Assembly (NCBI GenBank): GCA_021790115.1
Contig: JAJYIM010000004.1
Coordinates: forward strand, 1 to 62,139
Direction of reading: 5' to 3'
DNA from: Actinomycetes bacterium
GTDB lineage: Bacteria > Actinomycetota > Thermoleophilia > BMS3ABIN01
Length of the DNA stretch: 62,139 nt
In this document: positions 13,845-31,547 of the stretch, in pieces
Numbering within the stretch: position 1 is the stretch's first letter
Layout of the letters: every line of letters starts with the position of its first letter
Translations under genes and position numbers: made by a program
Notes under the pieces: generated by a model
Told to the model about the DNA's origin: nothing
Databases searched by the model: none
Seen by the model: the letters and a program-made list of their open reading frames with translations, nothing else

Positions 13845-14049
13845 AGTGGATTTGTAATTCCTGCAGCCGTTTAATATAGTAACGCCGGAAATCAAGAAGC
13901 TAACTCAAGGGCGGCGTTCTTCGCGCGGGCGGATTTCACCGGCCTGACCTGCTGCTCGTCAAGTTCAACGATCCTGCTTTAACGCTTGTACAACATGCTT
14001 ACAGGCAAGAGTGAGAGCCACAAGGCCGTGGAGTTGTGCGGGGTTTGCA

Positions 14050-14421
14050 GTGACTCCTGATTACGCCCAAAGCTACGTTTACGTCGCGGCTTTGGGAATC
14101 GTCGGCTTTGGCTTTGTCCTCGCCACCATCGGCATCTCGCGGCTGCTGCAGCGGCGTCACACCTATTCCGAGAAGTTAACGCCATACGAGTGCGGCATCG
14201 AGCCGCTGGTGGGCGACAGCTGGTCCCCGTTCGCGGTGCGCTATTACATCTGTGCCCTCCTCTTCGTTATTTTTGACGTGGAGGCTGTTTTTGTCTACCC
14301 GTGGGCGCTGATCTTCCGCAGCCTGGGGAAGGCCGGCTTTGCCGAGATGATGATCTTTATCGCCGTGCTGCTGTTCGGGCTCATCTACGCCTGGGCCAAG
14401 GGCGCACTGGAGTGGAGCTAA
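14050..14421 (+). CDS. nuoA: NADH-quinone oxidoreductase subunit A
   Basis: PYECG, RYY...[14 protein letters not shown]; GTG at 14050 preferred over track start 14011. Confidence 0.95.
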
Positions 14422-14423
14422 AG

Positions 14424-14963
14424 ATGTCCGTCCTGGAGCGGTTCGAGCATCCCAACATCCTAACTACCACAACCGACTGGTTATTCAACTGGGCCAGGCT
14501 CAACTCGCTCTGGCCCTTCACTTACGGGCTGGCCTGCTGCGCCATCGAGATGATCGCCACGACGATGCCGCGCCATGACATGGCCCGCTTCGGGATGGAG
14601 GCCTTCCGCGCCACCCCGCGGCAAGCCGACGTCATGATCGTATCCGGCACTATTACGGACAAGATGGCGCCGGTGCTGGTGCACCTTTACCATCAGATGG
14701 CGGAGCCGCGCTGGGTGGTGGCGATGGGCGCCTGCGCGTCCGGCGGCGGCATGTTCTGGGATTCTTACAACGTGGTCCAGGGAGCGGACCTGCTGGTGCC
14801 TGTCGATATCTATATCCCCGGCTGCCCGCCCCGGCCCGAGGCGCTCATTTATGGCATGCGCCAGCTGCAGGAAAAAATCCGCCAGCAGACCCAGGTGGGC
14901 CTGGCGCGCAAACTGGCGGCGGGAACAATGGTTAAGTATGACCCCGGAGATGGTGGGCAATGA
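14424..14963 (+). CDS. nuoB: NADH-quinone oxidoreductase subunit B
   Basis: [35 protein letters not shown]; ATG 14424 follows the nuoA stop. Confidence 0.97.
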
Positions 14964-15508
14964 GCGCCGATCGTTCCGTCCCGGGCAGCGCCGAAGCAGC
15001 CGAGCTGGCCGAAGACCTGCTGGCGGGCCTGGCCACTGACGTCTACCAGGAAAAAGACCGGATCGTCATTGCGCTCATGCCGGATGTCCTGCCGGAAGCG
15101 GCGCTCAGGCTCCGGGACCACGCCCGGCTTTCCTTCAAGTACCTGAGTTTTGTCAGCGGCATCGACTATGAGGACAGGATGGACGCTATCTATATTCTGC
15201 GCTCGGTCAACCACCAGGTGGTGGCGGAGCTGCGGGTGCGGCTCGACCGCGGGCAGCCGGTTGTGCCGACCGTGTCAAACGTGTGGAGCACTGCCGGCTG
15301 GCACGAACGCGAGGCCTACGACCTGCTGGGCATCGTTTTCGAAGGTCATCCAGACCTGCGGCGGATCCTTACCCGTGGCGAAGACGGCGTCTTCCCGCTG
15401 CGCAAGGACGCCCAGCCGCACCGGGTCAGGCGCGATGAATGGCGGTTTGATGGCATTGCCGAGCCGCGGCGGCTGCCCGGCGAGGGCGGCCGGGAGCAAC
15501 GCTCATGA
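14960..15508 (+). CDS. nuoC: NADH-quinone oxidoreductase subunit C
   Basis: [35 protein letters not shown]. Confidence 0.95.
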
Positions 15509-15592: not shown

Positions 15593-16672
15593 ATGGTCCT
15601 TAACATGGGCCCCCAGCACCCGTCGACGCATGGCGTCCTCAGGCTGGTGCTGCATCTTGACGGCGAGCTGATCGTCAGCGCCGATCCCGACATCGGTTAT
15701 CTGCACCGGGGATTTGAAAGGCTGGCGGAGAACCGCACCTACCTGCAGTTCTTCTCGATGTTGTCGCGGCTCGACTACCTGGCCGGCTTCTTCATGGAAT
15801 GGGCTTACGTGCGCGCCATCGAAGAACTGATGGAGATTGAACCGCCGCCGCGGGCCGAATACCTGCGCGTCATCGTTGGCGAGCTTAACCGCATCATCAG
15901 CCATCACATGGGCATCGGCGACTACCTGCTTAACCTGGGCGCCGCCACGCCCATGTTCTGGATGTTCCGGGACCGCGAAGATGTCCTTGACCTGCTGGAG
16001 ATGCTCACAGGACAGAGGATGATGTACAATTTTGCGCGCGTCGGCGGCGTGCGCTACGACCTGCCGGACGGGTTTGAGGATAAATGCCGCAAGTTTCTGA
16101 AAGAATTTCCCGCCAGGATCGACGAGTACGAGCAGCTGATCACGGGCAACGAGATTTTCCTGGCCCGCTCAGTGGGGGTCGGCGTGATCACAGCGGAGGC
16201 AGCGCTTGACTTCGGCCTCTCGGGGCCAAACCTGCGCGCCGCCGGCATACCCTGGGACCTGAGGCGGGAAGACGCCTATTCTGTTTACCCGGAGCTTGAT
16301 TTTGACATTCCCACCGGCAAGAATGGCGACAGCTTCGACCGTTACAAGTGCCGCATCGAGGAGTTGCGCCAGTCGGTGCGCATCATCGGGCAGGCGCTGG
16401 ACGCGCTGCCCGGGGGCCCGGTCAATATGAGGATGCCGCCGATGCTGCGGCCGCCGGCGGGCGAGATATACTGCGCCGTGGAGACCGGGCGGGGTGAGTG
16501 GTCCAATTACTTGATCTCTGACGGGGGGCTGCGCCCGTACCGCCTGAAGCTGCGCGACTCCTGCTTTGTGGCTGTGTCCACGCTGCCTGAAATCCTGCCC
16601 GGCAACAAGGTCGCCGACGTGGTCGGGATCGCCGGCAGCCTTGATCTGATCATGGGAGCGGTGGACCGGTGA
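15593..16672 (+). CDS. nuoD: NADH-quinone oxidoreductase subunit D
   Basis: LNMGPQHPSTHGVLRL, GYLHRG, RLDY, ETGRGE, GAVDR; the true start is probably upstream (ATG 15505 with a one-base slip, see findings). Confidence 0.95.
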   Translation: MVLNMGPQHPSTHGVLRLVLHLDGELIVSADPDIGYLHRGFERLAENRTYLQFFSMLSRLDYLAGFFMEWAYVRAIEELMEIEPPPRAEYLRVIVGELNRIISHHMGIGDYLLNLGAATPMFWMFRDREDVLDLLEMLTGQRMMYNFARVGGVRYDLPDGFEDKCRKFLKEFPARIDEYEQLITGNEIFLARSVGVGVITAEAALDFGLSGPNLRAAGIPWDLRREDAYSVYPELDFDIPTGKNGDSFDRYKCRIEELRQSVRIIGQALDALPGGPVNMRMPPMLRPPAGEIYCAVETGRGEWSNYLISDGGLRPYRLKLRDSCFVAVSTLPEILPGNKVADVVGIAGSLDLIMGAVDR

Positions 16673-17772: not shown

Positions 17773-19584
17773 ATGATCGGCTTACTAAAAGGCTTGAAGA
17801 TAACCGGGGCCCACCTCTTCCGCAGGAAGGTGACGGTGCAATATCCGGAAGAGCGGCGTCAGCTGCCCGAGCGCAGCCGCGGGCTGATCCGCCTGCGCCT
17901 GAAGGCGGATGCGCTGACGCCGCGCTGCATTGCCTGCACCTTTTGCGAGCAGGTCTGCCCGGCCGTTGCTATCAAGGTTATTTATGATGACAAGCAGCCG
18001 GAAAAAGTGTGGCGCTTTGACGCTGGTGCCGGACCGATGCTGTCATTTTTCAATAAGGGCGAAAAAGCGGTGGGAATTCCAGAGTGGCCCCGCGCCGGCC
18101 TTAAGTGCGCCGCGCCCGAGAGGCACGGCTGCCTGGCCAACTCCTTGCTTGACGCAAAGGAGCTGACCGAGGAGGTGCTCACGGCCACTGCCGCAAGCAG
18201 CGGCGCCTGGCTCAGCCAGGTTTTTGGCGTCGCCACCTTTTATGACCAGTTGGGGCCGGGAGCGCCGGCGCTGGGGCCCGAGCCGGAAGAGCCCCCCGCC
18301 AGGGTCACCGCTGAGGGCTGCCCGCCGATTCTGCTGGGGAATATCGGCAACGTCGATCCGGAAAACATTGAATCATATTCCGGCGCCGGCGGTTACAAGG
18401 CCGTCACCAAAACGCTGACTGAGATGGCTCCGGCCGAGGTCGTGGACGAGATCGCCGTCAGCGGCCTCAGGGGCCGCAGCGGCTCCGGTTTCCCCACCGG
18501 ACGCAAGTGGCAGGTGGCGGCGGCGCAGAGCGCCGTCACAAAATTCATCATCTGCAACGGCGAAGAGGGCGATCCGGGATCAATAAAAGACCGCGTCATC
18601 CTGGAAGAGAATCCGCACGCGGTCATCGAGGGCATGATCTTGGCCGGCTATGCCGTGGGCGCCGGCGAAGGGATAATATACTTAAGCGCCGAAAACCGGC
18701 TGGCGGTGGAGAGGATCAGGCGGGCGGCGGAGCAGGCCGAAGACCGGGGCCTGCTGGCAGACGAGCTGCCCGGCACCGGCTTCACTTTTTCCATTCACGT
18801 AATAGAGGCGCCCCGCGCACCCGTCGGCGGAGAGGAAACGGCGCTGATCGCCGCCCTGGAAGGCAATCGGCCCATGCCGGGCGTGCGGCCGCCCTACCCG
18901 GCCGAGAAAGGCCTGCGGGGGATGCCAACCGTGGTTGAAAACGTCGAGACGCTGGCGACAGTGCCCTGGATCATCAACAACGGCGCCCGCGCCTTCCAGC
19001 AGCTGGGGGCGCCGCATGCCCCCGGAACCAAGCTCTTCACCTTGCTGGGGGCAGTGGGCAAACCTGGTCTTTACGAGTCCACGCTTGACACCAGCCTGAA
19101 GAAGCTCATCGTCACTGAAGCAGGCGGCTTTACCGGCCAGGCCAAGGCGGCCCTGATCGGGACAGTCTGGGGTGGTTTCCTGTCGCCGGGGCTTTTTGAC
19201 ATCCCCCTTGATTTTGATTCTATCCGGGAAGCCGGCGGCGACTTAAGCTCCGGCACCATAAATGTGCTGGGCGAGGATGCCTGTATTGTTGACGCGGTCC
19301 GGAAGTGCCTCGCCTTTGCTGCCGCCGAGTCGTGCGGCAAGTGCGTCCCTTGCCGGCTTGGCACCTGGCGCCTGCTTGATATTGTGGAAAAAATTTGCTT
19401 GGGCAAGGGGAGTGAGGCCGACATCGAGCTGGCCGAGGCGCTGGCCGGGGACGTTCAGGCAGGGGCGCTCTGCGGCCTGGGGCGCGGCGCCGTGCAGCCG
19501 TTTTTAACCGGCGTCAAGTTTTTCCGGGATGAATTTCTGGAGCACGCCGCCGAAGGGCGCTGCCGCGCCGGGAAATGCGGATAA
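17773..19584 (+). CDS. Fusion: N-terminal half of NuoI + NuoE-like helical remnant + NuoF/HydB-like FMN subunit
   Basis: aa 1-85 GLKITGAHLFRRKVTVQYPEE...CIACTFCEQVCP is NuoI with only its first Fe-S motif; LSQVFGVATFY resembles the NuoE N-terminal helix; GLRGRSGSGFPTGRKW, CNGEEGDPG, GEETAL, ESCGKCVPCRLG, LCGLG are NuoF motifs. Confidence 0.9.
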   Translation: MIGLLKGLKITGAHLFRRKVTVQYPEERRQLPERSRGLIRLRLKADALTPRCIACTFCEQVCPAVAIKVIYDDKQPEKVWRFDAGAGPMLSFFNKGEKAVGIPEWPRAGLKCAAPERHGCLANSLLDAKELTEEVLTATAASSGAWLSQVFGVATFYDQLGPGAPALGPEPEEPPARVTAEGCPPILLGNIGNVDPENIESYSGAGGYKAVTKTLTEMAPAEVVDEIAVSGLRGRSGSGFPTGRKWQVAAAQSAVTKFIICNGEEGDPGSIKDRVILEENPHAVIEGMILAGYAVGAGEGIIYLSAENRLAVERIRRAAEQAEDRGLLADELPGTGFTFSIHVIEAPRAPVGGEETALIAALEGNRPMPGVRPPYPAEKGLRGMPTVVENVETLATVPWIINNGARAFQQLGAPHAPGTKLFTLLGAVGKPGLYESTLDTSLKKLIVTEAGGFTGQAKAALIGTVWGGFLSPGLFDIPLDFDSIREAGGDLSSGTINVLGEDACIVDAVRKCLAFAAAESCGKCVPCRLGTWRLLDIVEKICLGKGSEADIELAEALAGDVQAGALCGLGRGAVQPFLTGVKFFRDEFLEHAAEGRCRAGKCG

Positions 19585-19641
19585 AGCGGACGCTGGATGC
19601 TGGATCCTGGAAAAAAAGTAAAGATTGACAGACGGGTGACA

Positions 19642-22134
19642 ATGACAAAAAGCATTAACGATAAACCGCAGACGCTGCCGCCGGTGCGGATATCGGGAAC
19701 CGGCGCCCCGGTGACCCTGACAATCAACGGCCAGGCCGTCAAGGCGCATGCGGGCGGCACCATCCTGGAAGCGGCCAAATCGGTCAAGATCAAGATCCCT
19801 TATCTTTGCTACACCAAGGGCCTGGAGCCGTTTGGCGGCTGCCGCGTCTGCGTCGTTGAAGTCGAGGGCGAAGAGCAGCCGCTGCCCGCCTGCGCCACCA
19901 TGGTCAAGGAAGGCATGGCCGTCACCACCGATAGCGAGCGCCTGCTCAGGCTGCGAAAAACCTATCTGGAGCTGCTCCTTTCTGACCATAATGCCTACTG
20001 CCTGCCGCCCTGCAAGTACGGCTGCCCCACCAATGTTGACATCCCTGCTTACCTGGGCCTGATCGGCGACCGCGATTACGATGAGTCGCAGCGGGTGCTG
20101 AAAGAAAACCTGCCCTTCCCGGCAATCGTGGGCCGGGTATGCCCGCATCCCTGCGAGAGCGCCTGCCGCCGCAGTGAGGTGGAGGAGTCGATCTCCATCC
20201 GCCTCTGCCACCGGTTCGTGGGAGACATTGCCATTCAGAAGGGACTTAAGCCGGAGCGGCCGGAGCCGCCCACCGGCAAGCAGGTGGCCGTGATCGGCGC
20301 CGGGCCGGCGGGGCTCGCCAACGCCTACTACCTGGCGCTCCGAGGCCATGCCGTCACTATCTTTGAGGCGCTTCCCGATACCGGCGGCATGCTTCGCTAC
20401 GGCATTCCCGAGTACCGCCTGCCCAAAAAAGTTTTAAACGCGGAGCTGGAGCCGCTCTGGGCAATGGGCGTTGAGCTTAAGACAGGCATGGCCCTGGGGC
20501 CGGACTTCTCTGTTGACGAGCTCCTCGGCGAGATGGGATTTGACGCCGTCTTCCTCGGCATCGGCGCCCATCAGAGCCGCTCGATGCGTGTCGAGGGCGA
20601 GGAAATGGAAGGCGTGATGCCGGTGGTGGAGTTCCTCCGTGATGTCGCCATGGGCAACCCGCCGGACATCCGCGACCGGGTGGCCGTCATTGGCGGCGGT
20701 TTCTCGGCCATGGACGCCGCCCGCGTCTCCAAGCGGCTGGGGGCCAAAGAGGTGACCGTCATCTACCGCCGCACCCAGAAAGAGATGCCCGCTGACCAAA
20801 TCGAGGTGCACGACGCCATGGAAGAGGGTGTCAAATTTACTTTCCTGGCGGCGCCGGTAAAAATCGAGGCCGCAGACGGGCGCATCACCGGTATCGTCTG
20901 CCAGAAAATGGAGCTGGGCGAGCCGGATGAAAGCGGCCGGCGGCGGCCGCAGCCGGTGCCGGGCTCCGATTACCTGACCAGGGTTGACACGATCATCCCC
21001 GCCATCGGGCAACTGCCAAAGCTTTCATATGTAGATGTCAAAACCAAAGAGGTTTGCCAGATCCTGCCGGAAGAAGGCGGGGTTGCCTGCACCCGCTGGC
21101 AGACAATCGAGATTAACCCCAAGACTTATCAGACCGGGCGGCTGCAGGTGTTCGCCGCCGGCGACGCCGCCACCGGCGCCAAAACGGTGGTGGAAGCAAT
21201 TGGCGGCGCCAAGAAGGCCGCCTGGGCGATGGACGCTTTCCTTAAGGGGGAAGACATGGCTGCCTACGAAGCCGCCCTGCCCGCCTTTGACAAACCGCCG
21301 ATGGTTGCTATCCCCGCCTACCGCGAGGAAAAGATGGAGCGCCAGCTGACGCCCCAGCTGACGGAGAAGGAGCGCGAGGGCAATTTTCTCGAAATCGACC
21401 GGGGCTTTTCCGAGCAGGCCGCCGGCGCCGAAAGCCGCCGCTGCCTGCAATGCATCTGTGAAGGCGTCGAGACCTGCAAGCTCAGGCGCTACAGCCTGGC
21501 GGCCGGGCTGATCAAGGAAGAAGGCAACCGCTTTGCCGGCGTGCAAAACCTTTACGGGCGCGACAGCACGCACGCCTTCATCCAGAGGGACCCCAACCGC
21601 TGCATCAATTGCGGCCGCTGCATCCGCGTCTGCAAGTTCCTGACCGGCTCCGGAGTTTACGATTTTGCCTACCGCGCCCGGCGGACCATCGCCACTCCGC
21701 CGTTTGACCGCTCGCTCAATGACACGGACTGTGTCTCCTGCGGCCGCTGCGCCACTATCTGCCCCACCGGAGCGCTTTTTATGAAAGAGCGGCAGCTTGA
21801 CAACTGGCATCTGGATACGTCCCGCTGCATTTTCTGCGCCGATTGCGTTGAGGTCTGCCCGGTGGAGTCGCTGGCAATTACGCCCGCATTCGAGCTGGCT
21901 GCGCCCGGGCACGGGCAACTGCACAACAACCTGCTTGAGATGGCCCGGGGAGTGGACTTAAACCCCGAGGGCGCTTTCCAGCAGGATCATGCCGCCAGGC
22001 CGGGCCAGGACCACGCCGCCAAGCAATATCAAAAAGAGGTGCATGCCGGGGAGCAGGCCGGCTCCGAGGCCGAAAGCAGCGAAACGGCCGCGCCTGCCGC
22101 CGCTCAGCCGGATAAAAACGAGGAGCCGCAGTAA
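19642..22134 (+). CDS. Fusion: NuoG/HydA-type Fe-S domains with inserted GltD/SudA-like FAD-NAD(P)H domain + C-terminal half of NuoI
   Basis: [2Fe-2S] C-x10-C-x2-C..C (CYTKGLEPFGGCRVC...AC); LLSDH then GltD-type PCKYGCP...CPHPCESAC, GAGPAG, GGGFSAMD, IYRR; CLQCICEGVETC; CINCGRCIRVC and CVSCGRCATICP; then WHLDTSRCIFCADCVEVCPVESLAITPAFELA, the second NuoI motif region. Start 19642 or 19597. Confidence 0.9.
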   Translation: MTKSINDKPQTLPPVRISGTGAPVTLTINGQAVKAHAGGTILEAAKSVKIKIPYLCYTKGLEPFGGCRVCVVEVEGEEQPLPACATMVKEGMAVTTDSERLLRLRKTYLELLLSDHNAYCLPPCKYGCPTNVDIPAYLGLIGDRDYDESQRVLKENLPFPAIVGRVCPHPCESACRRSEVEESISIRLCHRFVGDIAIQKGLKPERPEPPTGKQVAVIGAGPAGLANAYYLALRGHAVTIFEALPDTGGMLRYGIPEYRLPKKVLNAELEPLWAMGVELKTGMALGPDFSVDELLGEMGFDAVFLGIGAHQSRSMRVEGEEMEGVMPVVEFLRDVAMGNPPDIRDRVAVIGGGFSAMDAARVSKRLGAKEVTVIYRRTQKEMPADQIEVHDAMEEGVKFTFLAAPVKIEAADGRITGIVCQKMELGEPDESGRRRPQPVPGSDYLTRVDTIIPAIGQLPKLSYVDVKTKEVCQILPEEGGVACTRWQTIEINPKTYQTGRLQVFAAGDAATGAKTVVEAIGGAKKAAWAMDAFLKGEDMAAYEAALPAFDKPPMVAIPAYREEKMERQLTPQLTEKEREGNFLEIDRGFSEQAAGAESRRCLQCICEGVETCKLRRYSLAAGLIKEEGNRFAGVQNLYGRDSTHAFIQRDPNRCINCGRCIRVCKFLTGSGVYDFAYRARRTIATPPFDRSLNDTDCVSCGRCATICPTGALFMKERQLDNWHLDTSRCIFCADCVEVCPVESLAITPAFELAAPGHGQLHNNLLEMARGVDLNPEGAFQQDHAARPGQDHAAKQYQKEVHAGEQAGSEAESSETAAPAAAQPDKNEEPQ

Positions 22135-22631
22135 TGCAATTCTCGACGCCGGTTTTCTATATTGTGGCGGCGCTTGTGATTATTCCGGCGGTGCTGATGG
22201 TTATGTTCCGCAACCTCATTTACAGCGCCATCGCCATGATCGCCTGCTTCATCGGAGTGGCGGCGGTGTTTGTCACCTTAAACGCGGAGCTGCTGGCTGC
22301 GTCGCAGCTGCTCATTTACGTGGGCGCGATATCGATCCTGATCCTGTTTGCCATCATGCTAACCCGTAGCCGCAGCGGCGCCGTCAACCTGTTTTTCCAC
22401 CGGCAGGCCTGGATGGCGCTGCCGGCCGCCGCGGCGCTTGCCGTTGTCCTGGGCGCAGTGCTGGGCACGGCCCGGTTCAGCGCCGGCGATACTCCTAAAA
22501 ACCCGGCCACGGGGAACCTGGCCAGCCTGCTCTTTAACCAGTATGCCTTCCCGTTCGAGCTGGCGTCGCTGGTGCTGCTGGCGGCAATTATCGGCACCGT
22601 CCTGCTGGCCAAAAAAGAGAGTCGCCCTTGA
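22134..22631 (+). CDS. nuoJ: NADH-quinone oxidoreductase subunit J
   Basis: [51 protein letters not shown]. Confidence 0.96.
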
Positions 22632-22936
22632 CGTCGCTGCAACATTACCTGGTCCTGGCAGGCGCGCTTTTTTCGGTGGGCGCCTGGGGGGTGCTGGCGC
22701 GCCGCAACATCATCATGGTGGTGATGAGCCTGGAGCTGATGTTTAACGCCGTCAATATCGCCCTGGTGGCATTCTCCAATTACTCATCCGCCGGGGCGGG
22801 CCGGGGAGAGGTGTTCGTCTTTTTTGTGCTGGCCATTGCTGCCGCCGAGGTTGCGGTTGGCCTGGCAATCGGCATCGCCATGTACCGCCTGCGCGAAAAG
22901 CTTGACGTTGATGAATTAGATGAATTGAAAGGATGA
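22628..22936 (+). CDS. nuoK: NADH-quinone oxidoreductase subunit K
   Basis: RRNII...[21 protein letters not shown]. Confidence 0.97.
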
Positions 22937-23006: not shown

Positions 23007-24896
23007 TTGAAGACAGCCGTCCTGCTCATACCGTTGCTGCCTTTGGCTTCGTTTATCATCACGGGGTTATTCGGCCGCCGTTATTTTAAGGAGAAAAGTC
23101 ACTACCTGTCAGTGGCGTCAGTGGCCTTAAGCTGGGTTCTGTCCATGTACGTCTTCATCCAGGTAGAGCGCGGCCAGACTTTATCCTGGCAGATTTATAA
23201 CTGGATTGCCGCCGGCAGGTTTAATGTCGATATCGGCTTTCTTGTCGATGAGCTGACCGCCATCATGCTCCTGGTTGTGTCAACGGTCGGCTTCATGGTT
23301 CATGTTTACTCGATCGGCTACATGCACGGCGACAAGGGCTACTACCGCTTCTTCGCCTATATCAACCTGTTCATGTTCTCGATGTTCATGCTGGTCCTGG
23401 CGAACAACTACCTGCTTCTCTACGTTTTCTGGGAAGCGGTGGGGCTGTGCTCATACCTGCTGATCGCCTTCTGGTTCCCCAAGCTAAGCGCCTCCAACGC
23501 CGGCATGAAAGCCTTCCTGGTCAACCGCGTCGGCGACTTCGGCTTCGGCTTGGGAATCATGCTCGTTTTCGTGACGCTGGGAACGCTTAGCTACAGCAGC
23601 GTTTTTGCTGCCGCCGGCACGCTGGGCGGCGGCATGGTCACCGCCATCTGCCTGCTGCTTTTTACCGGCGCAGTCGGCAAGAGCGCCCAGTTCCCACTGC
23701 ATGTCTGGCTGCCGGACGCCATGGAGGGCCCAACGCCGGTCAGCTCGCTGATCCACGCCGCTACGATGGTCAACGCCGGCGTCTACATGGTGGCCCGCTC
23801 CAGCCCACTGTTTGCCCACTCGCACACCGCCATGCTGGTGGTGGCCGCGGTGGGAACATTTACCGCCATTTTTGCCGCCACCATTGCCCTTGTCCAGAAC
23901 GACATCAAGAAGGTGCTGGCTTACTCCACGATCAGCCAGCTCGGCTACATGTTTATGGCGCTTGGCGTCGGCGCCTGGACCGCGGCCATGTTCCACCTGC
24001 TGGCGCACGGCTTTTTCAAGGGCCTGCTCTTCCTCTGCTCCGGCTCGGTAATTCATGCCCTTGACGGCGAGCAGGACATGCGCAAGATGGGCGGCCTCAA
24101 AAACAAGGTCAAGATTACTTACTGGACATTTTTTATCGGCGCCCTGGCGCTGTCCGGCTTTCCCGGCCTATCCGGCTTCTTCAGCAAGGACGCTATTCTC
24201 TCGGGAGCATTCAGCGGGGGCTACTGGTACTTCTGGATCGTAGCCCTGATCACCGTCTTCCTGACGGCTTTCTATTCGTTCCGGCTGATATTCATGACCT
24301 TCCACAACGAGCCGCGCACGGACCCTAAAATCTTTGCCCACGCGCACGAGTCGCCGCCGATAATGACGGTGCCGCTGATCGTTCTGTCGGTGCCAACGGT
24401 GGTGGCCGGCCTGGTGCTTGGCCTTCCACCGGAGGGCGGCCACATCGACCATTTTCTGCATCGCGTCTTTGCCGCCGCCATTACCGCGCCGGAGCATGCG
24501 TTCAGCTATCTGACGCTTGCCCTGATGATTATCTCTGCGGCCGTGGGCATCGCCGGCATACTCACCGCCTGGCACTTTTACCTGCGCTGCCCGTTTTTGC
24601 CGGCGGCAGCCTGCAAGCGCGCCGGCCGGCTTTATACGCTGCTGCTGAACAAGTACTACATTGATGAGATCTATTTCGCTGTTATCATCAACCCGGTGCG
24701 GCGCTTCTCTGCCTGGCTCTGGCGCATAGTTGACGCCGGCATCATCGACGGCGCCGTCAATGGGACGGGCTGGATTGCTCTTGGCGCCGGCCGCATCCTC
24801 AGGCCAATCCAGTCTGGCAAAGTGCAGGGGTATTTGTTTGCGATGTTTTTGGGACTTTTGGCTCTAATGGTAGCGTATCTGATATTGACTTTATGA
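23007..24896 (+). CDS. nuoL: NADH-quinone oxidoreductase subunit L
   Basis: WEAVGLCSYLLI, KAFLVNRVGDFG, GKSAQFPLHVWLPDAMEGPTPVS, IKKVLAYSTISQLG. Confidence 0.97.
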   Translation: MKTAVLLIPLLPLASFIITGLFGRRYFKEKSHYLSVASVALSWVLSMYVFIQVERGQTLSWQIYNWIAAGRFNVDIGFLVDELTAIMLLVVSTVGFMVHVYSIGYMHGDKGYYRFFAYINLFMFSMFMLVLANNYLLLYVFWEAVGLCSYLLIAFWFPKLSASNAGMKAFLVNRVGDFGFGLGIMLVFVTLGTLSYSSVFAAAGTLGGGMVTAICLLLFTGAVGKSAQFPLHVWLPDAMEGPTPVSSLIHAATMVNAGVYMVARSSPLFAHSHTAMLVVAAVGTFTAIFAATIALVQNDIKKVLAYSTISQLGYMFMALGVGAWTAAMFHLLAHGFFKGLLFLCSGSVIHALDGEQDMRKMGGLKNKVKITYWTFFIGALALSGFPGLSGFFSKDAILSGAFSGGYWYFWIVALITVFLTAFYSFRLIFMTFHNEPRTDPKIFAHAHESPPIMTVPLIVLSVPTVVAGLVLGLPPEGGHIDHFLHRVFAAAITAPEHAFSYLTLALMIISAAVGIAGILTAWHFYLRCPFLPAAACKRAGRLYTLLLNKYYIDEIYFAVIINPVRRFSAWLWRIVDAGIIDGAVNGTGWIALGAGRILRPIQSGKVQGYLFAMFLGLLALMVAYLILTL

Positions 24897-26464
24897 CCAT
24901 GTATTCCTTCCAATCCCAAATAGGCTTCCCAATATTAAGCGTCATGACGTTCCTGCCCACGCTGGGCGCGGTGGCCATGCTGCTGTTGATGCGCGGCCGG
25001 CCGCGGCTTTACAAGTTCACCGCCTTGGCGGCCACCGGCGCCACGTTCATTCTGTCGCTGCTGATGCTGGCGAAGTTCGACCAGTACACCGCCGATTTCC
25101 AGTTCATCGAAAAAGTCAACTGGATTCATCGCCTTGGCGCCAGCTACCACATGGGTGTGGACGGCATTAGCGTGCTGCTTATCCTGTTGACGACGCTGCT
25201 GTCTTTGATCATCATCCCGGCTTCCTGGAACTATATCAAGGACCGCGAGCTTGGCTTCTTTGCCTCCTTCCTGTTTTTGGAGACCGGCATGTTGGGCACC
25301 TTCTGCGCCCGCGACCTGCTCCTCTTCTATGTCTTCTGGGAAATCATGCTGATTCCGATGTACTTCATCATCGGCGTCTGGGGCGGCCCGCGGCGCATCT
25401 ATGCGGCGCTCAAGTTTTTCCTGTTTACGATGGCCGGCAGCGTCCTGATGCTGGTCGCCATTGTCGGCATTGCTTATCTGGCGCGGCCGAACCAGTACGC
25501 GCCGCCCGTTTTCGACCTGGACCAGCTGCAAAACGCCGTATTTTCCTTCCCTGTGCAAATGGCCGCCTTCCTGGCTTTCTTTATCGCCTTTGCCATCAAG
25601 GTGCCGATGTGGCCGCTGCACACCTGGCTTCCGGATGCACACGTGGAGGCGCCGACGGCGGGCAGCGTCATCCTGGCCGGCGTGCTGCTGAAAATGGGCG
25701 GCTACGGCATCATCCGTTTCTGCATCCCGCTCTTTCCCGACGCCGTCGCGGCCTCGATACCATATATCCTTATCTTGTCAATAATCGCCATTATTTACGG
25801 CGCCCTGGTCTCGCTGGTGCAGAAAGATTTAAAAAAGCTGGTCGCCTACTCCAGCGTCAGCCACATGGGTTTTGTCACGGGGGGAATCTTTGCCTTTAGC
25901 GTCATTGGCCTTGAGGGCGCGCTGCTGGTGATGTTCAGTCACGGCCTGCTGACCGGCGCCCTGTTCCTGATGGTCGGCTTCATGTATGAGCGCCTGCACA
26001 CGCGGGAGATTTCCGCCATGGGTGGGTTGGCCTCGCCTTTCCCGGTGATGGCTGCGTTCTTGCTTTTCTTCACGCTGGGCTCGCTGGGCCTGCCGGGGCT
26101 ATCCGGCTTCATCGGCGAATTCCTCAGCCTCTTGGGCCTGTTCACATACAACAAGGCGATGGCGGTAGTCGCCGCCGCCGGCATTATTCTGGCGGCCGCC
26201 TACCTGCTGTGGATGTACCTGCGGGTAATGTTTACCGAAACGCGGGACCAGAAATGGTTCCGGCTTTCGGACTTGAGCCTGCGCGAGATCGCCTCGCTGG
26301 CGCCGCTGGCCGGCCTGGCTGTGTGGGTGGGCGTGTACCCCAACACCTTCATCAACATCATCCATCCGTCCGCGAGCCATTTAATTGATCACATGAGTCC
26401 TTATCTTGCCCAGCATGGCGACTTCCTGACGCGCATTTTCGCCTCGCTTGGAGGTGGACGCTAG
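24893..26464 (+). CDS. nuoM: NADH-quinone oxidoreductase subunit M
   Basis: GVDGIS, FWEIMLIPMY, IKVPMWPLHTWLPDAHVEAPTAGS, KKLVAYSSVSHMG. Confidence 0.97.
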   Translation: MTMYSFQSQIGFPILSVMTFLPTLGAVAMLLLMRGRPRLYKFTALAATGATFILSLLMLAKFDQYTADFQFIEKVNWIHRLGASYHMGVDGISVLLILLTTLLSLIIIPASWNYIKDRELGFFASFLFLETGMLGTFCARDLLLFYVFWEIMLIPMYFIIGVWGGPRRIYAALKFFLFTMAGSVLMLVAIVGIAYLARPNQYAPPVFDLDQLQNAVFSFPVQMAAFLAFFIAFAIKVPMWPLHTWLPDAHVEAPTAGSVILAGVLLKMGGYGIIRFCIPLFPDAVAASIPYILILSIIAIIYGALVSLVQKDLKKLVAYSSVSHMGFVTGGIFAFSVIGLEGALLVMFSHGLLTGALFLMVGFMYERLHTREISAMGGLASPFPVMAAFLLFFTLGSLGLPGLSGFIGEFLSLLGLFTYNKAMAVVAAAGIILAAAYLLWMYLRVMFTETRDQKWFRLSDLSLREIASLAPLAGLAVWVGVYPNTFINIIHPSASHLIDHMSPYLAQHGDFLTRIFASLGGGR

Positions 26465-27934
26465 TTGCAGCATGACGTCGTCGCTATAGTCCCGGAACTC
26501 ATGCTGATTGCCGCGGCGCTGGTATTGCTGCTGATAGACCCGTTCTTGCCGCCGGAAGGGCGGCGCGGCTTAAGCTGGCTGGGAATCATGGCCTGCCTGC
26601 CGGCGGCGGCGTCGGTATGGCTGGCGCGCTCGGAGCAGTTCTCCACTTTCTCGCACGGCATCGCCCTGGACAGGTTCGCCGTTTTCTTCAAGCTCCTGCT
26701 GCTGGCTGTGGCGGTGCTGGCGATGCTGCTTTCCGAAAAACACCTGGCCAAGAACGGGCGGCTGCTGGGCGACTACTACGCCCTGATTCTGCTGGCCACC
26801 GTCGGCATGATGGTGATGGCATCGGCGATAGACCTTGCCACCTTCTTTGTCGGCCTGGAGCTGATGGCGCTGTGCAGCTACCTGCTGGCCGGATTCTTCC
26901 GCTACCGCGAGCGCTCCATTGAAGCATCGCTGAAATATTTCCTCACCGGATCGTTTGCTTCCGCCATCCTGCTCTTTGGCATGGCGCTGCTTTATGGCAT
27001 CACCGGCAGCACCAATTACCAGGAAATCGGGGTGGCGATCAGCACCACGTCGTTGGACAGCCACGTGCTCGTGATCGCAATTGTCCTGCTTTTAGGAGGG
27101 TTTGCTTTCAAGGTGGCGGCGGCGCCGTTCCACGGCTGGGCGCCGGACGTTTACCAGGGAGCGCCGACCCCGGCGGCTGCATTCCTGTCTGTCGGCCCCA
27201 AAATCGCTGCCTTTGCCGCCATCATCAAGTTTTTTACGATCATGCTGGGCTCCGAGCAGGCTCGCTGGGTGCCGCTGATGATCGCGGTGGCCATTGCCAC
27301 CATGCTGATTGGGGCCACGATGGCGCTTCTGCAGCGCGACCTCAAGCGGATGCTGGCCTTCTCCAGCATCGCTCACGTTGGCTACCTGCTGCTGGCGCTG
27401 ATCGCCGCCGGCCAGAGCCACAGCAACCTGGGATCATCCGCCGTCCTCTTCTACCTGGCAGCCTACGCCGCGATGAACATGGGCGCCTTTGGCGTGCTGG
27501 TCTTCCTGGCAAATTCAGCCAGTTTTGGCGACAGCCTGGACGAGATGGCCGGCCTGGCGCGCCGTTTCCCCGGCGCTGCGGGCGTAATGGCCGTGCTGAT
27601 GTTCTCTCTGGCCGGGATCCCGCCTACCGCCGGTTTTCTGGCAAAATTCTACCTGTTTGCCAGCGTCGTTGACGCCGGCTACGCCTGGCTGGCCGTAATC
27701 GGGGTGCTGTTTAGCGTGGTCTCGGCGTTTTACTATCTGCGCGTGATCGTCTACATGTATATGCGCGAGCCATCGGCCGAGGCAGCGGCGGCGATGGAGC
27801 CGGCGGGCGGACGCTCGTGGGACTTAAGTCTGGGCCTGGGGTTGGCAACGGCGGCAGTGGTCATCCTGGGTGTGCTCCCAGGGCCGATTCTTAACGCGGC
27901 CCAGGACGCGGTGGCGAAGATACTGGGTTCGTAG
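26465..27934 (+). CDS. nuoN: NADH-quinone oxidoreductase subunit N
   Basis: GLELMAL, EASLKYF, FKVAAAPFHGWAPDVYQGAPTP, KRMLAFSSIAH, GIPPTAGF; TTG start directly after the nuoM stop. Confidence 0.96.
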   Translation: MQHDVVAIVPELMLIAAALVLLLIDPFLPPEGRRGLSWLGIMACLPAAASVWLARSEQFSTFSHGIALDRFAVFFKLLLLAVAVLAMLLSEKHLAKNGRLLGDYYALILLATVGMMVMASAIDLATFFVGLELMALCSYLLAGFFRYRERSIEASLKYFLTGSFASAILLFGMALLYGITGSTNYQEIGVAISTTSLDSHVLVIAIVLLLGGFAFKVAAAPFHGWAPDVYQGAPTPAAAFLSVGPKIAAFAAIIKFFTIMLGSEQARWVPLMIAVAIATMLIGATMALLQRDLKRMLAFSSIAHVGYLLLALIAAGQSHSNLGSSAVLFYLAAYAAMNMGAFGVLVFLANSASFGDSLDEMAGLARRFPGAAGVMAVLMFSLAGIPPTAGFLAKFYLFASVVDAGYAWLAVIGVLFSVVSAFYYLRVIVYMYMREPSAEAAAAMEPAGGRSWDLSLGLGLATAAVVILGVLPGPILNAAQDAVAKILGS

Positions 27935-29867: not shown

Positions 29868-30254
29868 ATGACAGAACAAACAGCCACACTGGAGGAATGC
29901 GTAAACACAGAGATCAAGGGCGAGACCTGGGAGGTAGTCCATTACCTGGCCATGGCGCTTAAGGCCGACAATGAAGGCATGACCGAAGTGGCGCAGACTC
30001 TGCGCAATATCGCCATGGACGAGGCGGCGCACGGGTCCCGCTTCAAGTATCTGGCAGGCAATATTGGTGATCTCAAGGAAGAGATTGAAAAGATGCTGTC
30101 CGGTGAAGAGCAGGCCTACGAGGGGAAGCACGAGGGCGTAAAAACGGCTGAGGCTGCCGGCCAGAAACAGGTTGCCTCCACCCTGCACACCGCCGCTCAC
30201 GACGAGGCCAGGCACGCCTCGATGCTGCGCAACCTGCTGAAACGGTATTTCTAG
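29868..30254 (+). CDS. Ferritin-like (rubrerythrin-type) di-iron protein without a rubredoxin domain
   Basis: Two E...ExxH ligand sets (GETWE...DEAAH; GEEQA...DEARH); RBS aaaggag. Confidence 0.85.
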   Translation: MTEQTATLEECVNTEIKGETWEVVHYLAMALKADNEGMTEVAQTLRNIAMDEAAHGSRFKYLAGNIGDLKEEIEKMLSGEEQAYEGKHEGVKTAEAAGQKQVASTLHTAAHDEARHASMLRNLLKRYF

Positions 30255-30777
30255 CACTTAATTGCAAAAGTTAGAGCAATATAATAACCTGCCCCCAGGA
30301 AAGGCGCAATTTGGTTTTGTTAATCTTTACCTGGAGGTCAAGATGGCGAAAGCGACAGTAATTACTTTAGGGGAAGAAGAAAAGGCAATGCTTTTATCAT
30401 GGGCCCGCCGCGGCAAGACAGAGCGCCGCTTGGCAGAGCGGGCAAACGTTATTCTGGCGGCTGCGGCTGGCAAACCAACTAAAGAGATTGCCCATGATCT
30501 TGGCACACGGCCGGCACGGGTAAGCAAATGGCGGACCCGCTACGCCAGGGATGGGATTGAAGGGCTTAAAGATGCGCCCCGCCAGGGAGCTCCGGTCCGC
30601 TACGGACAACCAGCAGAGAAACGTATTTTAGCTCTGCTTGATCAGCCGCCCCCGTCAGGATTTTCAACCTGGAGCGGACCGCTGATTGCCAGAGAGCTTA
30701 AAGACGTAAGCAAACACCAGGTCTGGCGGGTCATGCGGCGCCACGGCTTAAGCCTTACGCGCCGGCGCAGTTGGTGT
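30254..30777 (+). mobile_element. IS630-family insertion sequence, left end and 5' transposase fragment
   Basis: MAKATVITLGEEEKAMLLSWARR...RANVIL...VSKWRTRYARDGIEGLKDAPRQG...WSGPLIAREL...VWR...RRRSWC is the IS630 HTH region; the element begins after the TA of the upstream stop codon (IS630 targets TA); no DDE domain. Confidence 0.8.
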
Positions 30778-31536: not shown

Positions 31537-31547
31537 ATTGAGGGAGC

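What the first reader, a model, noticed from the sequence alone, without database searches (positions are those of the whole stretch)
17773..22134. Complex I with nuoI split in two and an electron-input module inserted and fused in frame to both halves
Seen: the operon reads nuoA-B-C-D-H-[X]-[Y]-J-K-L-M-N, the 11-subunit order, with X and Y where nuoI belongs. X begins with the NuoI N-terminus (17773-~18027) and carries one CxxCxxCxxxCP (first Cys codon 17926), then becomes NuoF-like. Y is NuoG/GltD-like and ends with the rest of NuoI (~21790-21970: WHLDTSRCIFCADCVEVCP...AFELA, first Cys codon 21826). Both ORFs are intact, and each has one unpaired Fe-S motif. Established: in 2[4Fe-4S] ferredoxin folds such as NuoI, each cluster (N6a, N6b) takes three Cys from one motif and the fourth from the other. 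Inference: both clusters would be ligated across two polypeptides, stapling the input module onto the quinone module. I know of no described complex I with a split, doubly fused NuoI, but cannot exclude one.
Basis: partly seen in the sequence, partly recalled or inferred. Interest (0 to 1): 0.92.

Follow-up and report, generated by a model that had tools for sequence, protein, structure and literature searches.

The report
Complex I with split, module-fused NuoI
This respiratory complex I operon encodes its NuoI iron-sulfur subunit as two halves, each fused to one end of an inserted two-flavin NAD(P)H-oxidising module related to NfnABC/Stn transhydrogenases; the layout is conserved in over 100 Actinomycetota and Chloroflexota species-level genomes and I found no description of it in the papers I could search.

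Summary
The operon reads nuoA-B-C-D-H-X-Y-J-K-L-M-N. X is the NuoI N-half (one CxxCxxCxxxCP motif), a vestigial NuoE segment and a NuoF/BfuB-like flavoprotein. Y is NfnA/StnC-like (2Fe-2S, GltD FAD/NADPH domain, dicluster domain) and ends with the NuoI C-half.

A chimera of the two halves matches the curated NuoI model end to end (107.8 bits; halves 65.2 and 42.8) and aligns continuously with solved NDUFS8 chains, with all 8 Cys on ligand positions.

The split is not an assembly artefact. It recurs in about 20 Thermoleophilia/Gaiellales MAGs. About 47 Thermoleophilia genomes have a three-gene form with a complete Bfu module. About 50 Ktedonobacteria, including cultured strains, have a compact nuoB-linked cluster. 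All 70 paired loci keep the 1+3 motif pattern, and both halves are under purifying selection.

The window's module lacks the clusters required for Bfu-type bifurcation (C1, B3/B4). I therefore read it as a non-bifurcating NAD(P)H:quinone input module stapled to the Q-module through a trans-ligated N6a/N6b domain.

The 3D pairing could not be tested because both AlphaFold runs failed. No prior description was found; the nearest is the predicted "Nuo-Bfu".

The parts
14011..14421 (+). nuoA
   Evidence: Pfam Oxidored_q4, 126 bits
14424..14963 (+). nuoB (the ORF opens at 14301; the likely start is ATG 14424). The four N2-cluster Cys (CC...C...CP) are present.
   Evidence: Pfam Oxidored_q6, 100.7 bits; sequence
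14960..15508 (+). nuoC
   Evidence: Pfam Complex1_30kDa
15593..16672 (+). nuoD
   Evidence: Pfam Complex1_49kDa, 314.7 bits
16669..17766 (+). nuoH
   Evidence: Pfam NADHdh, 362 bits
17773..19584 (+). Gene X (603 aa): NuoI N-half, then a NuoE vestige, then a NuoF/BfuB-like flavoprotein
17773..18027 (+). X aa 1-85: NuoI N-terminal half, including the NuoI-specific TVQYPEE...P.RSRG segment
   Evidence: NF004538 positions 15-86 of 162; TIGR01971 positions 1-67 of 121, 65.2 bits; dN/dS 0.20
17926..17961 (+). X Cys52-Pro63, CIACTFCEQVCP: first 4Fe-4S motif of the split NuoI
   Evidence: Invariant in 9 orthologues and present in 70 of 70 paired loci; aligns with the ligand Cys of solved NDUFS8
18028..18339 (+). 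X aa 86-189: linker plus a vestigial NuoE-like segment (...VFGVATFYDQLGPG) that lacks the 2Fe-2S cysteines
   Evidence: P0006 (NuoI-N plus intact NuoE, PF01257) aligns with X 1-158. No conserved NuoE Cys set. dN/dS 0.33. Pfam itself did not call a NuoE domain here, so 'NuoE vestige' is an inference.
18340..19581 (+). X aa 190-603: NuoF/BfuB-like FMN/NAD(H) domain with the B1 (N3-type) 4Fe-4S motif (C521, C524, C527, C567). No N-terminal Trx-like 2Fe-2S domain and no C-terminal 2x[4Fe-4S] domain.
   Evidence: Pfam Complex1_51K and NADH_4Fe-4S. Best PDB hits NfnB 9bov_B 422 bits (chain 105-523 of 584) and StnB 409 bits, against Nqo1 314 bits. Motifs.
19597..22134 (+). Gene Y (845 aa; the true start may be the internal ATG at 19642): NfnA/StnC-like BfuA with a GltD insertion, ending in the NuoI C-half
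   Evidence: 9bov_A 620 bits over Y 40-748; 8oh5_C 580 bits; 9n5u_A 518 bits; Pfam and NCBIfam
19705..19935 (+). Y aa 37-113: N-terminal [2Fe-2S] domain (NuoG/HoxU/HydA type; C71, C82, C85, C99)
   Evidence: Pfam Fer2_4, 74.7 bits; Cys invariant
19999..21255 (+). Y aa 135-553: GltD-like domain (Fer4_20 clusters, FAD site VAVIGAGPAG, NADPH site VAVIGGGFSAMDAAR...YRR..MPA)
   Evidence: Pfam Fer4_20 and Pyr_redox_2; NF009454 614 bits; motifs conserved in the orthologues; lowest dN/dS, 0.18
21442..21477 (+). Y C616-C627, CLQCICEGVETC: all-Cys motif at the position of the NuoG N5 / BfuA A2 cluster
   Evidence: Invariant in all orthologues including L015. The assignment to A2/N5 is by position and is an inference.
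21577..21777 (+). Y aa 661-727: ferredoxin-like dicluster domain (motifs CINCGRCIRVC and CVSCGRCATICP), read as the BfuA A3/A4 equivalent
   Evidence: Pfam Fer4_Nqo3 661-727; TIGR02512 FeFe_hydrog_A 662-731; residue-level alignment with solved NfnA
21802..21981 (+). Y aa 736-795: NuoI C-terminal half (NWHLDTSRCIFCADCVEVCPVESLAITPAFELA...LL)
   Evidence: TIGR01971 positions 70-114 of 121, 42.8 bits alone; aligns with the C-half of solved NDUFS8; dN/dS 0.32
21826..21861 (+). Y Cys744-Pro755, CIFCADCVEVCP: second 4Fe-4S motif of the split NuoI
   Evidence: Invariant; 70 of 70 loci carry three motifs in this region
21982..22131 (+). Y aa 796-845: lineage-specific charged tail that is weakly constrained
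   Evidence: Absent or short in L005, L006 and L008; dN/dS 0.55
22134..22631 (+). nuoJ (its start overlaps the Y stop by 1 nt)
   Evidence: Pfam Oxidored_q3; junction sequence
22628..22936 (+). nuoK
   Evidence: ORF; 72-91% identical orthologues in synteny
23007..24896 (+). nuoL
   Evidence: ORF; synteny
24893..26464 (+). nuoM
   Evidence: ORF; synteny
26465..27934 (+). nuoN
   Evidence: ORF; synteny

Best explanation
The window encodes a variant of the 11-subunit-type respiratory complex I. An electron-input module derived from the Nfn-Bfu/Stn family (BfuC-BfuB-BfuA with a GltD insertion) has been inserted into nuoI, in the loop between its two 4Fe-4S motifs. In this lineage the first two module genes have fused and shrunk, which leaves two genes. 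X carries the NuoI N-half, a NuoE vestige and an FMN/NAD(H)-binding NuoF-like domain with one 4Fe-4S cluster (B1). Y carries a 2Fe-2S cluster, a GltD-type FAD/NADPH domain with its own clusters, three further 4Fe-4S clusters and then the NuoI C-half. Inferred step: the two NuoI halves reassemble into one 2[4Fe-4S] ferredoxin fold (N6a/N6b). Each cluster would take three Cys from one polypeptide and the fourth from the other, so the domain both conducts electrons and ties X and Y onto NuoB/D/H. Inferred step: electrons from NADPH (FAD in Y) and probably NADH (FMN in X) run along the Fe-S chain to N6a/N6b, then to N2 in NuoB, then to menaquinone, driving the NuoL/M/N proton pumps (or the reverse reaction). 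The window's module has lost the C1 [2Fe-2S] cluster and the B3/B4 clusters needed for Bfu-type bifurcation, so it most likely acts as a simple non-bifurcating NAD(P)H:quinone oxidoreductase. Three-gene relatives in other Thermoleophilia keep the full bifurcation set. Shown: gene order, domain identities, complementarity of the halves, conservation and selection. Inferred: physical pairing, substrates and direction of electron flow.
For: Gene order and domains. Halves complementary on the NuoI model: chimera 107.8 bits over positions 1-114 of 121, against 65.2 (X half) and 42.8 (Y half); the L015 chimera scores 105.8. The chimera aligns continuously with solved NDUFS8/NuoI (8b9z_I, E 1.2e-21), all 8 Cys on ligand positions. 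Y 40-748 matches NfnA 9bov_A at 620 bits and StnC at 580; Y's first two motifs align with NfnA's dicluster domain, which leaves motif 3 unpaired. X 186-602 matches NfnB at 422 bits, ahead of Nqo1 at 314, and ends before the B3/B4 domain. Conservation: the same operon in 8 MAGs and more; the three-gene form in L015 and in about 47 Thermoleophilia genomes, 24 of them with complete synteny; 70 of 70 paired loci with 1+3 motifs; ligand Cys invariant. Purifying selection on every domain. No other nuoI in the window. Bifurcation requirements (B1-FMN-C1 plus B3/B4) are taken from PMC11829005; X lacks C1, B2, B3 and B4. GltD FAD/NADPH motifs are conserved in the orthologues. An unsplit precedent for NuoI-like plus GltD exists: NCBIfam NF010590 aligns its positions 20-114 with the chimera and 198-609 with Y's GltD domain.
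Against: The chimera scores just below the curated NuoI cut-off (107.8 against 113.05). In Ktedonobacteria the same split proteins sit in a compact nuoB-linked cluster with no membrane-arm genes within about 9 kb, so attachment to a proton-pumping arm is not guaranteed for every family member. The NuoF nucleotide/FMN loops drift in some orthologues, and the third B1 Cys is Gly in L004 and Asp in L008, so NADH use at the FMN site is uncertain. A second intact nuoI elsewhere in the genome cannot be excluded from a 62 kb contig. Substrates, quinone type and direction are untested.
Confidence: 0.7

Rival explanations
1. X and Y form a soluble Nfn/Stn-like NAD(P)H transhydrogenase that happens to be encoded inside the nuo operon. 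Its NuoI-like ends would be only ferredoxin-type domains for internal electron transfer, and complex I would use a separate NuoI encoded elsewhere.
For: In Ktedonobacteria the homologous genes lie with nuoB only, flanked by unrelated genes. L035 lacks nuoJ-N directly after the module. X and Y are closest to soluble NfnB/NfnA.
Against: The insertion sits exactly at the nuoI position, and no other nuoI is in the window. X keeps the NuoI-specific N-terminal segment, not just a Cys motif, under strong constraint. The operon is tightly coupled. The arrangement nuoH-[..]-nuoJ recurs in more than 40 loci. Even the compact clusters keep nuoB, the direct electron partner of NuoI.
Confidence: 0.1
2. Y alone carries a complete NuoI-like dicluster core made of its second and third motifs. 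X's motif and Y's first motif would then be orphans or would bind other clusters.
For: Pfam Fer4_7 and TIGR01971 align Y 705-774 across motifs 2 and 3.
Against: That pairing scores only 55.8 bits on the NuoI model, 13 bits above motif 3 alone, while X plus motif 3 scores 107.8. Motifs 1 and 2 align residue by residue with the dicluster domain of solved NfnA/StnC and with HydA/HoxU-type models. The pairing would leave two orphan motifs, each lacking its fourth ligand, yet both are invariant.
Confidence: 0.06
3. The window's enzyme is itself an electron-bifurcating or confurcating complex I that couples NAD(P)H, ferredoxin and quinone.
For: The module derives from bifurcating Nfn-Bfu enzymes. 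Schut et al. predicted a confurcating Nuo-Bfu. Two flavins and two nucleotide sites are present.
Against: The window's X lacks the C1 2Fe-2S cluster, the B2 domain and the B3/B4 C-terminal domain. B3/B4 are reported as essential for bifurcation, and non-bifurcating homologues lack B2-B5.
Confidence: 0.1
4. Assembly artefact, frameshift or decaying pseudogene.
For: The window is a MAG contig. A few database relatives (P0004, P0005) look frameshifted.
Against: Both ORFs are intact. The same junctions occur in more than 100 independent species-level assemblies, including cultured Ktedonobacteria with finished or large contigs. dN/dS is 0.18-0.33 across the domains.
Confidence: 0.01

Closest known systems
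Nfn-Bfu / Stn transhydrogenase (NfnABC of Caldicellulosiruptor saccharolyticus, PDB 9bov; StnABC of Sporomusa ovata, PDB 8oh5; archaeal NfnABC, PDB 9n5u)
   Same: Y 40-748 is homologous to NfnA/StnC (620 and 580 bits): 2Fe-2S, GltD FAD/NADPH insertion, 4Fe-4S clusters. X 186-602 is closest to NfnB/StnB (422 and 409 bits). Three-gene relatives (L015 type) also have the NuoE-like subunit with its 2Fe-2S cluster and the BfuB N- and C-terminal cluster domains.
   Different: The roughly 480-residue Fdh/molybdopterin-like C-terminal domain of NfnA/StnC is replaced by a 60-residue NuoI C-half. The BfuC (or fused BfuC-BfuB) subunit carries a NuoI N-half at its N-terminus. The genes sit between nuoH and nuoJ. 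The window's form has lost C1, B2 and B3/B4.
Predicted 'Nuo-Bfu' complex I (Schut et al. 2022, PMC9304861; Geobacter, Deferribacteres, Planctomycetes, Nitrospirae)
   Same: A complex I-like operon whose input module is a Bfu-type trio embedded in the gene cluster. It is proposed to feed menaquinone and drive proton pumping.
   Different: In that case BfuABC replaces NuoEFG in the 14-subunit cluster. NuoI intactness, the exact gene position and the BfuA type are not stated in the passages I read; I take them from general knowledge of the nuoA-N order. Here the module is Nfn-type (GltD, NADPH), sits inside nuoI, and splits that subunit. No experimental characterisation is cited for either.
Canonical NuoI / NDUFS8 / Nqo9 (N6a and N6b clusters)
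   Same: X(1-78) plus Y(738-795) covers the NuoI model end to end and aligns with solved chains, with all eight ligand Cys, the N-terminal TVQYPEE..RxRG segment and the C-terminal FELA..LL segment.
   Different: The fold is encoded on two polypeptides separated by about 1,270 residues of inserted module. Neither half reaches the family cut-off alone.
NuoI-like/GltD fusion proteins (NCBIfam NF010590, PRK13984 'putative oxidoreductase', 611 aa) and the GltD-related flavoprotein said to substitute for NuoI in Mbx-like operons of Thermotoga (Degli Esposti 2015, PMC4758237)
   Same: A NuoI-type dicluster domain directly joined to a GltD NAD(P)H flavoprotein in a complex-I-like context. The profile aligns with the chimera (positions 20-114) and with Y's GltD domain (198-609).
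   Different: The NuoI-like domain is unsplit and N-terminal, with no NuoF/BfuB or 2Fe-2S/HoxU-like parts. I did not verify that NF010590 and the Thermotoga Mbx protein are the same family.
Predicted 'Mbh-Bfu' of Dehalococcoides (Schut et al. 2022)
   Same: BfuABC genes lie in the middle of a complex-I-related membrane hydrogenase cluster, and one subunit has an extra flavin site.
   Different: It is a hydrogenase rather than a quinone reductase. I could not check whether its NuoI homologue is also split.

Membership tests
Respiratory complex I (11-subunit core type) | Genes for NuoA, B, C, D, H, J, K, L, M, N in one operon | tested here: met
   ORFs and Pfam hits; synteny in orthologues
Respiratory complex I (11-subunit core type) | A single NuoI polypeptide carrying both 4Fe-4S motifs (N6a, N6b) | tested here: not met
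   The motifs lie on two polypeptides, X Cys52-62 and Y Cys744-754. No other nuoI in the window.
Respiratory complex I (11-subunit core type) | NuoB with the four N2-cluster cysteines | tested here: met
   CCAIEM..., GACASGGG and PGCPP are present in the NuoB sequence; read directly from the sequence
Respiratory complex I (11-subunit core type) | Quinone reduction coupled to proton translocation | not testable with these tools
   Requires biochemistry
NuoI (TIGR01971 / NF004538) | Whole-protein score above the curated cut-off (113.05 / 135 bits) | tested here: not met
   X 59.7-65.2 bits, Y 58.7 bits; the artificial chimera scores 107.8 / 104.6 bits, covering model positions 1-114 of 121
NuoI (TIGR01971 / NF004538) | Eight Cys ligands in two CxxCxxCxxxCP motifs within a ferredoxin fold | tested here: inconclusive
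   All eight Cys are present and align with the ligands of solved chains. The fold across two chains was not modelled.
Bfu family (BfuABC; Schut 2022, Li 2025) | BfuB with an FMN/NAD(H) site and the B1 4Fe-4S cluster | tested here: met
   Pfam Complex1_51K and NADH_4Fe-4S; 422 bits to NfnB; motifs shown (B1 third Cys varies in L004 and L008)
Bfu family (BfuABC; Schut 2022, Li 2025) | BfuC C1 [2Fe-2S] cluster (part of the B1-FMN-C1 flavobicluster) | tested here: not met
   X 86-189 has no conserved NuoE Cys set. The feature is met in L015-type relatives (Cys171, 176, 212, 216).
Bfu family (BfuABC; Schut 2022, Li 2025) | BfuB C-terminal domain with B3/B4 clusters (essential for bifurcation) and N-terminal B2 domain | tested here: not met
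   X ends at the position equivalent to NfnB residue 523 of 584 and starts its match at 105. Both domains are present in L015 B.
Nfn-Bfu / Stn subtype | BfuA with an inserted GltD-type FAD/NADP(H) domain | tested here: met
   Y 135-553 Fer4_20 and Pyr_redox_2; 620 bits to 9bov_A; NADPH-type motif conserved in the orthologues
Nfn-Bfu / Stn subtype | Fdh/molybdopterin-like C-terminal domain of BfuA | tested here: not met
   Y ends about 100 residues after the dicluster domain. The match to 1,178-aa NfnA stops at its residue 696.
Nuo-Bfu (predicted, Schut 2022) | BfuABC replacing NuoEFG within a 14-subunit nuoA-N cluster | tested here: not met
   Here the module lies between nuoH and nuoJ, inside nuoI. 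NuoI intactness there is my assumption and is not stated in the passages read.

The most novel reading that the evidence does not exclude
The family represents a previously unrecognised class of complex I in which an Nfn-type flavin-based electron-bifurcating module is hard-wired into the quinone module through a 2[4Fe-4S] domain assembled from two polypeptides. In the three-gene Thermoleophilia relatives, which keep C1, B2 and B3/B4, the enzyme would couple NADPH, NAD+/NADH and ferredoxin chemistry directly to menaquinone reduction and proton pumping. The window's two-gene form and the Ktedonobacteria form would be successive reductions towards a plain NAD(P)H dehydrogenase. Together they would be a living series that re-enacts how the canonical NuoEFG module may have arisen from a bifurcating ancestor.
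Probability: 0.25. Interest if true: 0.92.

Novelty: new variant of a known kind. Interest (0 to 1): 0.8.

Why it matters
Complex I input modules are usually treated as separate subunits docked on an intact NuoI. Here the docking subunit itself is cut in two and each half is fused to the input module, so two Fe-S clusters would be shared between polypeptides. That is a rare arrangement, and as far as I know (from memory) it has not been described for a 2[4Fe-4S] ferredoxin fold.

The module brings a conserved NADPH site into a proton-pumping complex I. If the site is functional, this would be an energy-conserving NADPH:quinone oxidoreductase, or in reverse a proton-motive-force-driven source of NADPH. 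To my knowledge canonical complex I is NADH-specific (again from memory).

The family is common in uncultured soil and subsurface Thermoleophilia. It also occurs in cultured Ktedonobacteria such as Ktedonobacter racemifer DSM 44963 and Thermogemmatispora, so it can be tested directly. Public annotation currently labels the pieces 'hypothetical protein', 'ferredoxin', 'NuoE', 'FAD-dependent oxidoreductase' or 'formate dehydrogenase major subunit', so genome-based metabolic reconstructions will score these organisms as lacking NuoI.

The graded series (full Bfu, reduced two-gene form, compact nuoB-linked cluster) bears on the open question of how NADH-dependent complex I evolved from ferredoxin-dependent or bifurcating ancestors.

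Tried and rejected
1. AlphaFold2 on the chimera X(1-78)+Y(738-795) failed twice: as a single sequence (pLDDT 33.6) and with 43 genuine NuoI sequences as the alignment (pLDDT 43.3). Both models are unusable, so no fold search was run.

2. A more decisive design was prepared: X N-terminus, linker, and the Y C-terminal region with all three motifs, plus 20 paired orthologues (alignment A2).

3. The rival pairing of Y motifs 2+3 was tested against the NuoI profile and rejected.

4. A search for a second nuoI in the window found none. The rest of the genome is not available.

5. P0004 and P0005, short proteins covering 76% of the X N-terminal query, were considered as possible stand-alone intermediates. 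Their sequences look like frameshifted X genes, so I dropped them.

6. I could not establish whether Ktedonobacteria encode the missing nuo genes elsewhere, or whether the Dehalococcoides Mbh-Bfu also splits its NuoI homologue.

7. Literature searches for a prior description and readings of PMC4758237, bioRxiv 10.1101/2025.03.13.643058, PMC9304861, PMC5736913 and PMC11829005 found none. Subscription-only papers were not searchable.

Full report
**Observation**

The window carries a tightly packed operon nuoA (14011-14421), nuoB, nuoC, nuoD, nuoH (16669-17766), X (17773-19584, 603 aa), Y (19597-22134, 845 aa), nuoJ (22134-22631), nuoK, nuoL, nuoM and nuoN (to 27934). The gaps are 6 nt between nuoH and X and 12 nt between X and Y, and Y overlaps nuoJ by 1 nt. 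There is no nuoE, nuoF, nuoG or nuoI gene as such.

**What X and Y are**

X residues 3-75 match NuoI models (NF004538 positions 15-86 of 162; TIGR01971 positions 1-66 of 121). X 190-592 matches NuoF. Against solved structures, X 186-602 is closest to the BfuB subunits of bifurcating enzymes: NfnB 9bov_B 422 bits, StnB 8oh5_B 409 bits and HydB about 400 bits, ahead of canonical Nqo1 at 314 bits. The match covers NfnB residues 105-523 of 584. X therefore lacks both the N-terminal thioredoxin-like 2Fe-2S domain and the C-terminal 2x[4Fe-4S] domain.

X 86-189 contains a NuoE-like stretch (VFGVATFYDQLGPG) but no NuoE cysteines. Its identity became clear from relatives in which the NuoI N-half is fused to an intact NuoE (P0006).

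Y 40-748 is a strong homologue of the BfuA subunit of the Nfn-Bfu/Stn transhydrogenases (9bov_A 620 bits, 8oh5_C 580 bits, 9n5u_A 518 bits). It has:

- an N-terminal 2Fe-2S domain
- an inserted GltD-type domain with FAD and NADPH motifs
- an all-Cys CxxCxCx5C motif
- a ferredoxin-like dicluster domain

Where NfnA/StnC continue into a formate-dehydrogenase-like domain of about 480 residues, Y instead continues with NWHLDTSRCIFCADCVEVCPVESLAITPAFELA..., which is the C-terminal half of NuoI (TIGR01971 positions 70-114).

**Is NuoI really split?**

I joined X(1-78) to Y(738-795) and scored the chimera against curated models.

| Query | TIGR01971 score | Model positions |
|---|---|---|
| Chimera X(1-78)+Y(738-795) | 107.8 bits (cut-off 113.05) | 1-114 of 121, one stretch |
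| X half alone | 65.2 bits | 1-67 |
| Y motif-3 half alone | 42.8 bits | 70-114 |
| Y motifs 2+3 (rival pairing) | 55.8 bits | 42-114 |
| Chimera from the distant relative L015 | 105.8 bits | 2-117 |

The two halves are additive and complementary. Against the PDB, the chimera aligns continuously with NDUFS8/TYKY/NuoI chains. The best hit is 8b9z_I (E 1.2e-21), query 4-121 against chain 40-160, with a single 4-residue gap at the junction and all eight Cys on the ligand positions.

Y's first two motifs align residue by residue with the dicluster domain of solved NfnA and with HydA/HoxU/Nqo3-type models. They pair with each other, so Y motif 3 and X's single motif are the two unpaired ones. In 2[4Fe-4S] ferredoxin folds each cluster takes three Cys from one motif and the fourth from the other (established knowledge). 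Reassembly of the halves would therefore give two clusters, each ligated across both polypeptides. This last step is inference, because I could not obtain a usable structural model.

**Conservation**

The arrangement is not an artefact. I found three layouts.

1. **Two-gene form (as in the window).** Eight independent Actinomycetota MAGs (Thermoleophilia, Gaiellales, 'Actinomycetes') share nuoABCDH-X-Y-JKLMN, with X at 57-84% identity. A scan with the Y C-terminal junction added more (L018-L029).
2. **Three-gene form.** The order is nuoH-[NuoI-N + intact NuoE, 253 aa]-[BfuB with N-terminal 2Fe-2S and C-terminal 2x4Fe-4S domains, 636 aa]-[BfuA-GltD + NuoI-C, 824 aa]-nuoJ. I first saw it in L015, a Thermoleophilia MAG from an anaerobic membrane bioreactor. 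It occurs in about 47 species-level Thermoleophilia genomes, and 24 loci show the complete synteny. The 253-aa fusion protein is abundant in metagenomes, with at least 120 clusters, and JGI names it simply 'NuoE'.
3. **Compact cluster.** About 50 Ktedonobacteria have nuoB-[NuoI-N protein]-[NuoF-like]-[Y-like]. In K. racemifer the flanking genes are unrelated. Carriers include cultured Ktedonobacter racemifer DSM 44963, Thermogemmatispora aurantia, Dictyobacter species and Tengunoibacter.

Further points on conservation:

- All 70 non-redundant loci that carry both halves have exactly one motif in the N-half protein and three in the Y C-terminal region.
- All ligand Cys are invariant in the close orthologues.
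- Median dN/dS is 0.20 for the NuoI N-half and 0.32 for the C-half. The catalytic domains score 0.18-0.30 and Y's tail 0.55.
- An exhaustive profile search of 1.84 billion representative proteins found only 18 clusters at E<=1e-30. Essentially only these extend through the NuoI C-half, so the junction is specific to a small family.

**Mechanism**

The NfnABC structure paper (PMC11829005) gives the electron path as FAD-A7-A6-A3-A2-A1-[B1-FMN-C1]-B3-B4-ferredoxin. It defines the bifurcation site as the B1-FMN-C1 flavobicluster, with B3/B4 essential. Non-bifurcating homologues, including complex I, lack B2-B5.

The window's X keeps FMN-site motifs and B1 but has no C1, B2, B3 or B4. I therefore predict a non-bifurcating enzyme. 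NADPH would be oxidised at the GltD FAD of Y. This is the most conserved domain, and its VAVIGGGFSAMDAAR...YRR..MPA motif is conserved in the orthologues. NADH would probably be oxidised at the FMN of X. Electrons would pass along the Fe-S chain to the reassembled N6a/N6b, then to N2 in NuoB and to menaquinone.

The FMN/NADH loops drift in the Gaiellales-like orthologues, and the third B1 Cys is Gly in L004 and Asp in L008. The NADH branch is therefore less certain than the NADPH branch. The three-gene relatives keep every bifurcation feature and may be true bifurcating or confurcating complexes.

An unsplit precedent for joining a NuoI-type domain to GltD exists. NCBIfam NF010590 aligns with the chimera at its N-terminus and with Y's GltD domain at its C-terminus. 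Degli Esposti (PMC4758237) notes a GltD-related flavoprotein substituting for NuoI in Mbx-like operons.

**Novelty**

Schut et al. 2022 (PMC9304861) predicted 'Nuo-Bfu' and 'Mbh-Bfu' complexes with Bfu genes embedded in complex-I-like clusters. Their Nuo-Bfu replaces NuoEFG in a 14-subunit cluster and, as described, is not the Nfn (GltD) type. Nothing I read mentions a split NuoI. The complex I surveys I read list only B/C/D fusions. Public annotations call the pieces 'hypothetical protein', 'ferredoxin', 'NuoE', 'FAD-dependent oxidoreductase' or 'formate dehydrogenase major subunit'. I therefore rate this a new variant of a known kind (complex I with a Bfu-derived input module). Its new features are the split, doubly fused NuoI and the Nfn-type NADPH site.

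**Limits**

- The physical pairing of the halves, the substrates, the quinone and the direction of electron flow are all inferred.
- A second nuoI elsewhere in the genome cannot be excluded.
- In Ktedonobacteria, and in L035 (where no nuoJ-N follows the module), association with a proton-pumping arm is unproven.
- Only open-access literature was searched.

Noticed in passing
L054, L063, L070, L082 (tandem); L066, L071, L044, L046, L060, L076 (orphan): Several Ktedonobacteria carry one or two extra tandem copies of the Y-like gene (2Fe2S-GltD-dicluster-NuoI-C) after the nuoB-linked cluster. Others have orphan Y paralogues elsewhere that still end in a NuoI C-half but have no NuoI-N partner nearby.
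   Followed up: partly
L035:1560-18093: A Chloroflexota MAG has nuoABCDH plus the split module, then about 5.8 kb without detectable nuo genes, then a second nuoABCD set. No nuoJ-N follows the module directly.
   Followed up: partly
X aa 527 equivalents in L004 and L008; X aa 235-275 equivalents in L005, L006, L008: The third Cys of the NuoF-type B1/N3 cluster is Gly in L004 (a 1.8x-coverage MAG) and Asp in L008. The FMN and NADH loops (GFPTG, EGDPGS) are altered in the Gaiellales-like orthologues and in K. racemifer, which hints that the NADH site is changing or decaying in some lineages.
   Followed up: partly
window:19561-19581 (X aa 597-603): X ends with a conserved C-x4-C (GRCRAGKCG) that aligns with NfnB 'KKCPAKQC' just before the missing B3/B4 domain. 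It may be a remnant of one of the Zn sites reported in NfnB.
   Followed up: no
window:21982-22131: Y has a lineage-specific charged, low-complexity C-terminal tail (QDHAA...EAESSETAAPAAAQPDKNEEPQ) that is absent or short in the more distant orthologues and is weakly constrained (dN/dS 0.55).
   Followed up: partly
window:1145-4166 and 30001-32000: Two low-GC patches (0.47 and 0.49, against about 0.60 elsewhere). The first holds a type I restriction-modification methylase (HsdM) and a fused MqsA/SocA-Panacea antitoxin-like protein. The second holds a helix-turn-helix, transposase-like ORF (30262-31536). Both are probably mobile or horizontally acquired segments.
   Followed up: partly
window:29868-30254: A 128-aa ORF just downstream of RmuC looks rubrerythrin- or ferritin-like by eye (paired E..H motifs). 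It was not scanned against any library.
   Followed up: no
window:41787-45862: A type IV pilus assembly gene set (PilB-, PilT- and PilC-like) is followed by a sigma-70 family factor.
   Followed up: no
P0004 and P0005 (ENA contigs of 89.8 and 99.9 kb): Two database proteins similar to the X N-terminal region appear to be frameshifted X genes on long contigs. They may be sequencing errors or real pseudogenes.
   Followed up: no
L148-L153: Planctomycetota loci picked up through the NuoE part carry ordinary Bfu trios (NuoE-BfuB-BfuA) without a NuoI-N or GltD part. They may belong to the Nuo-Bfu or hydrogenase groups described by Schut et al.
   Followed up: no
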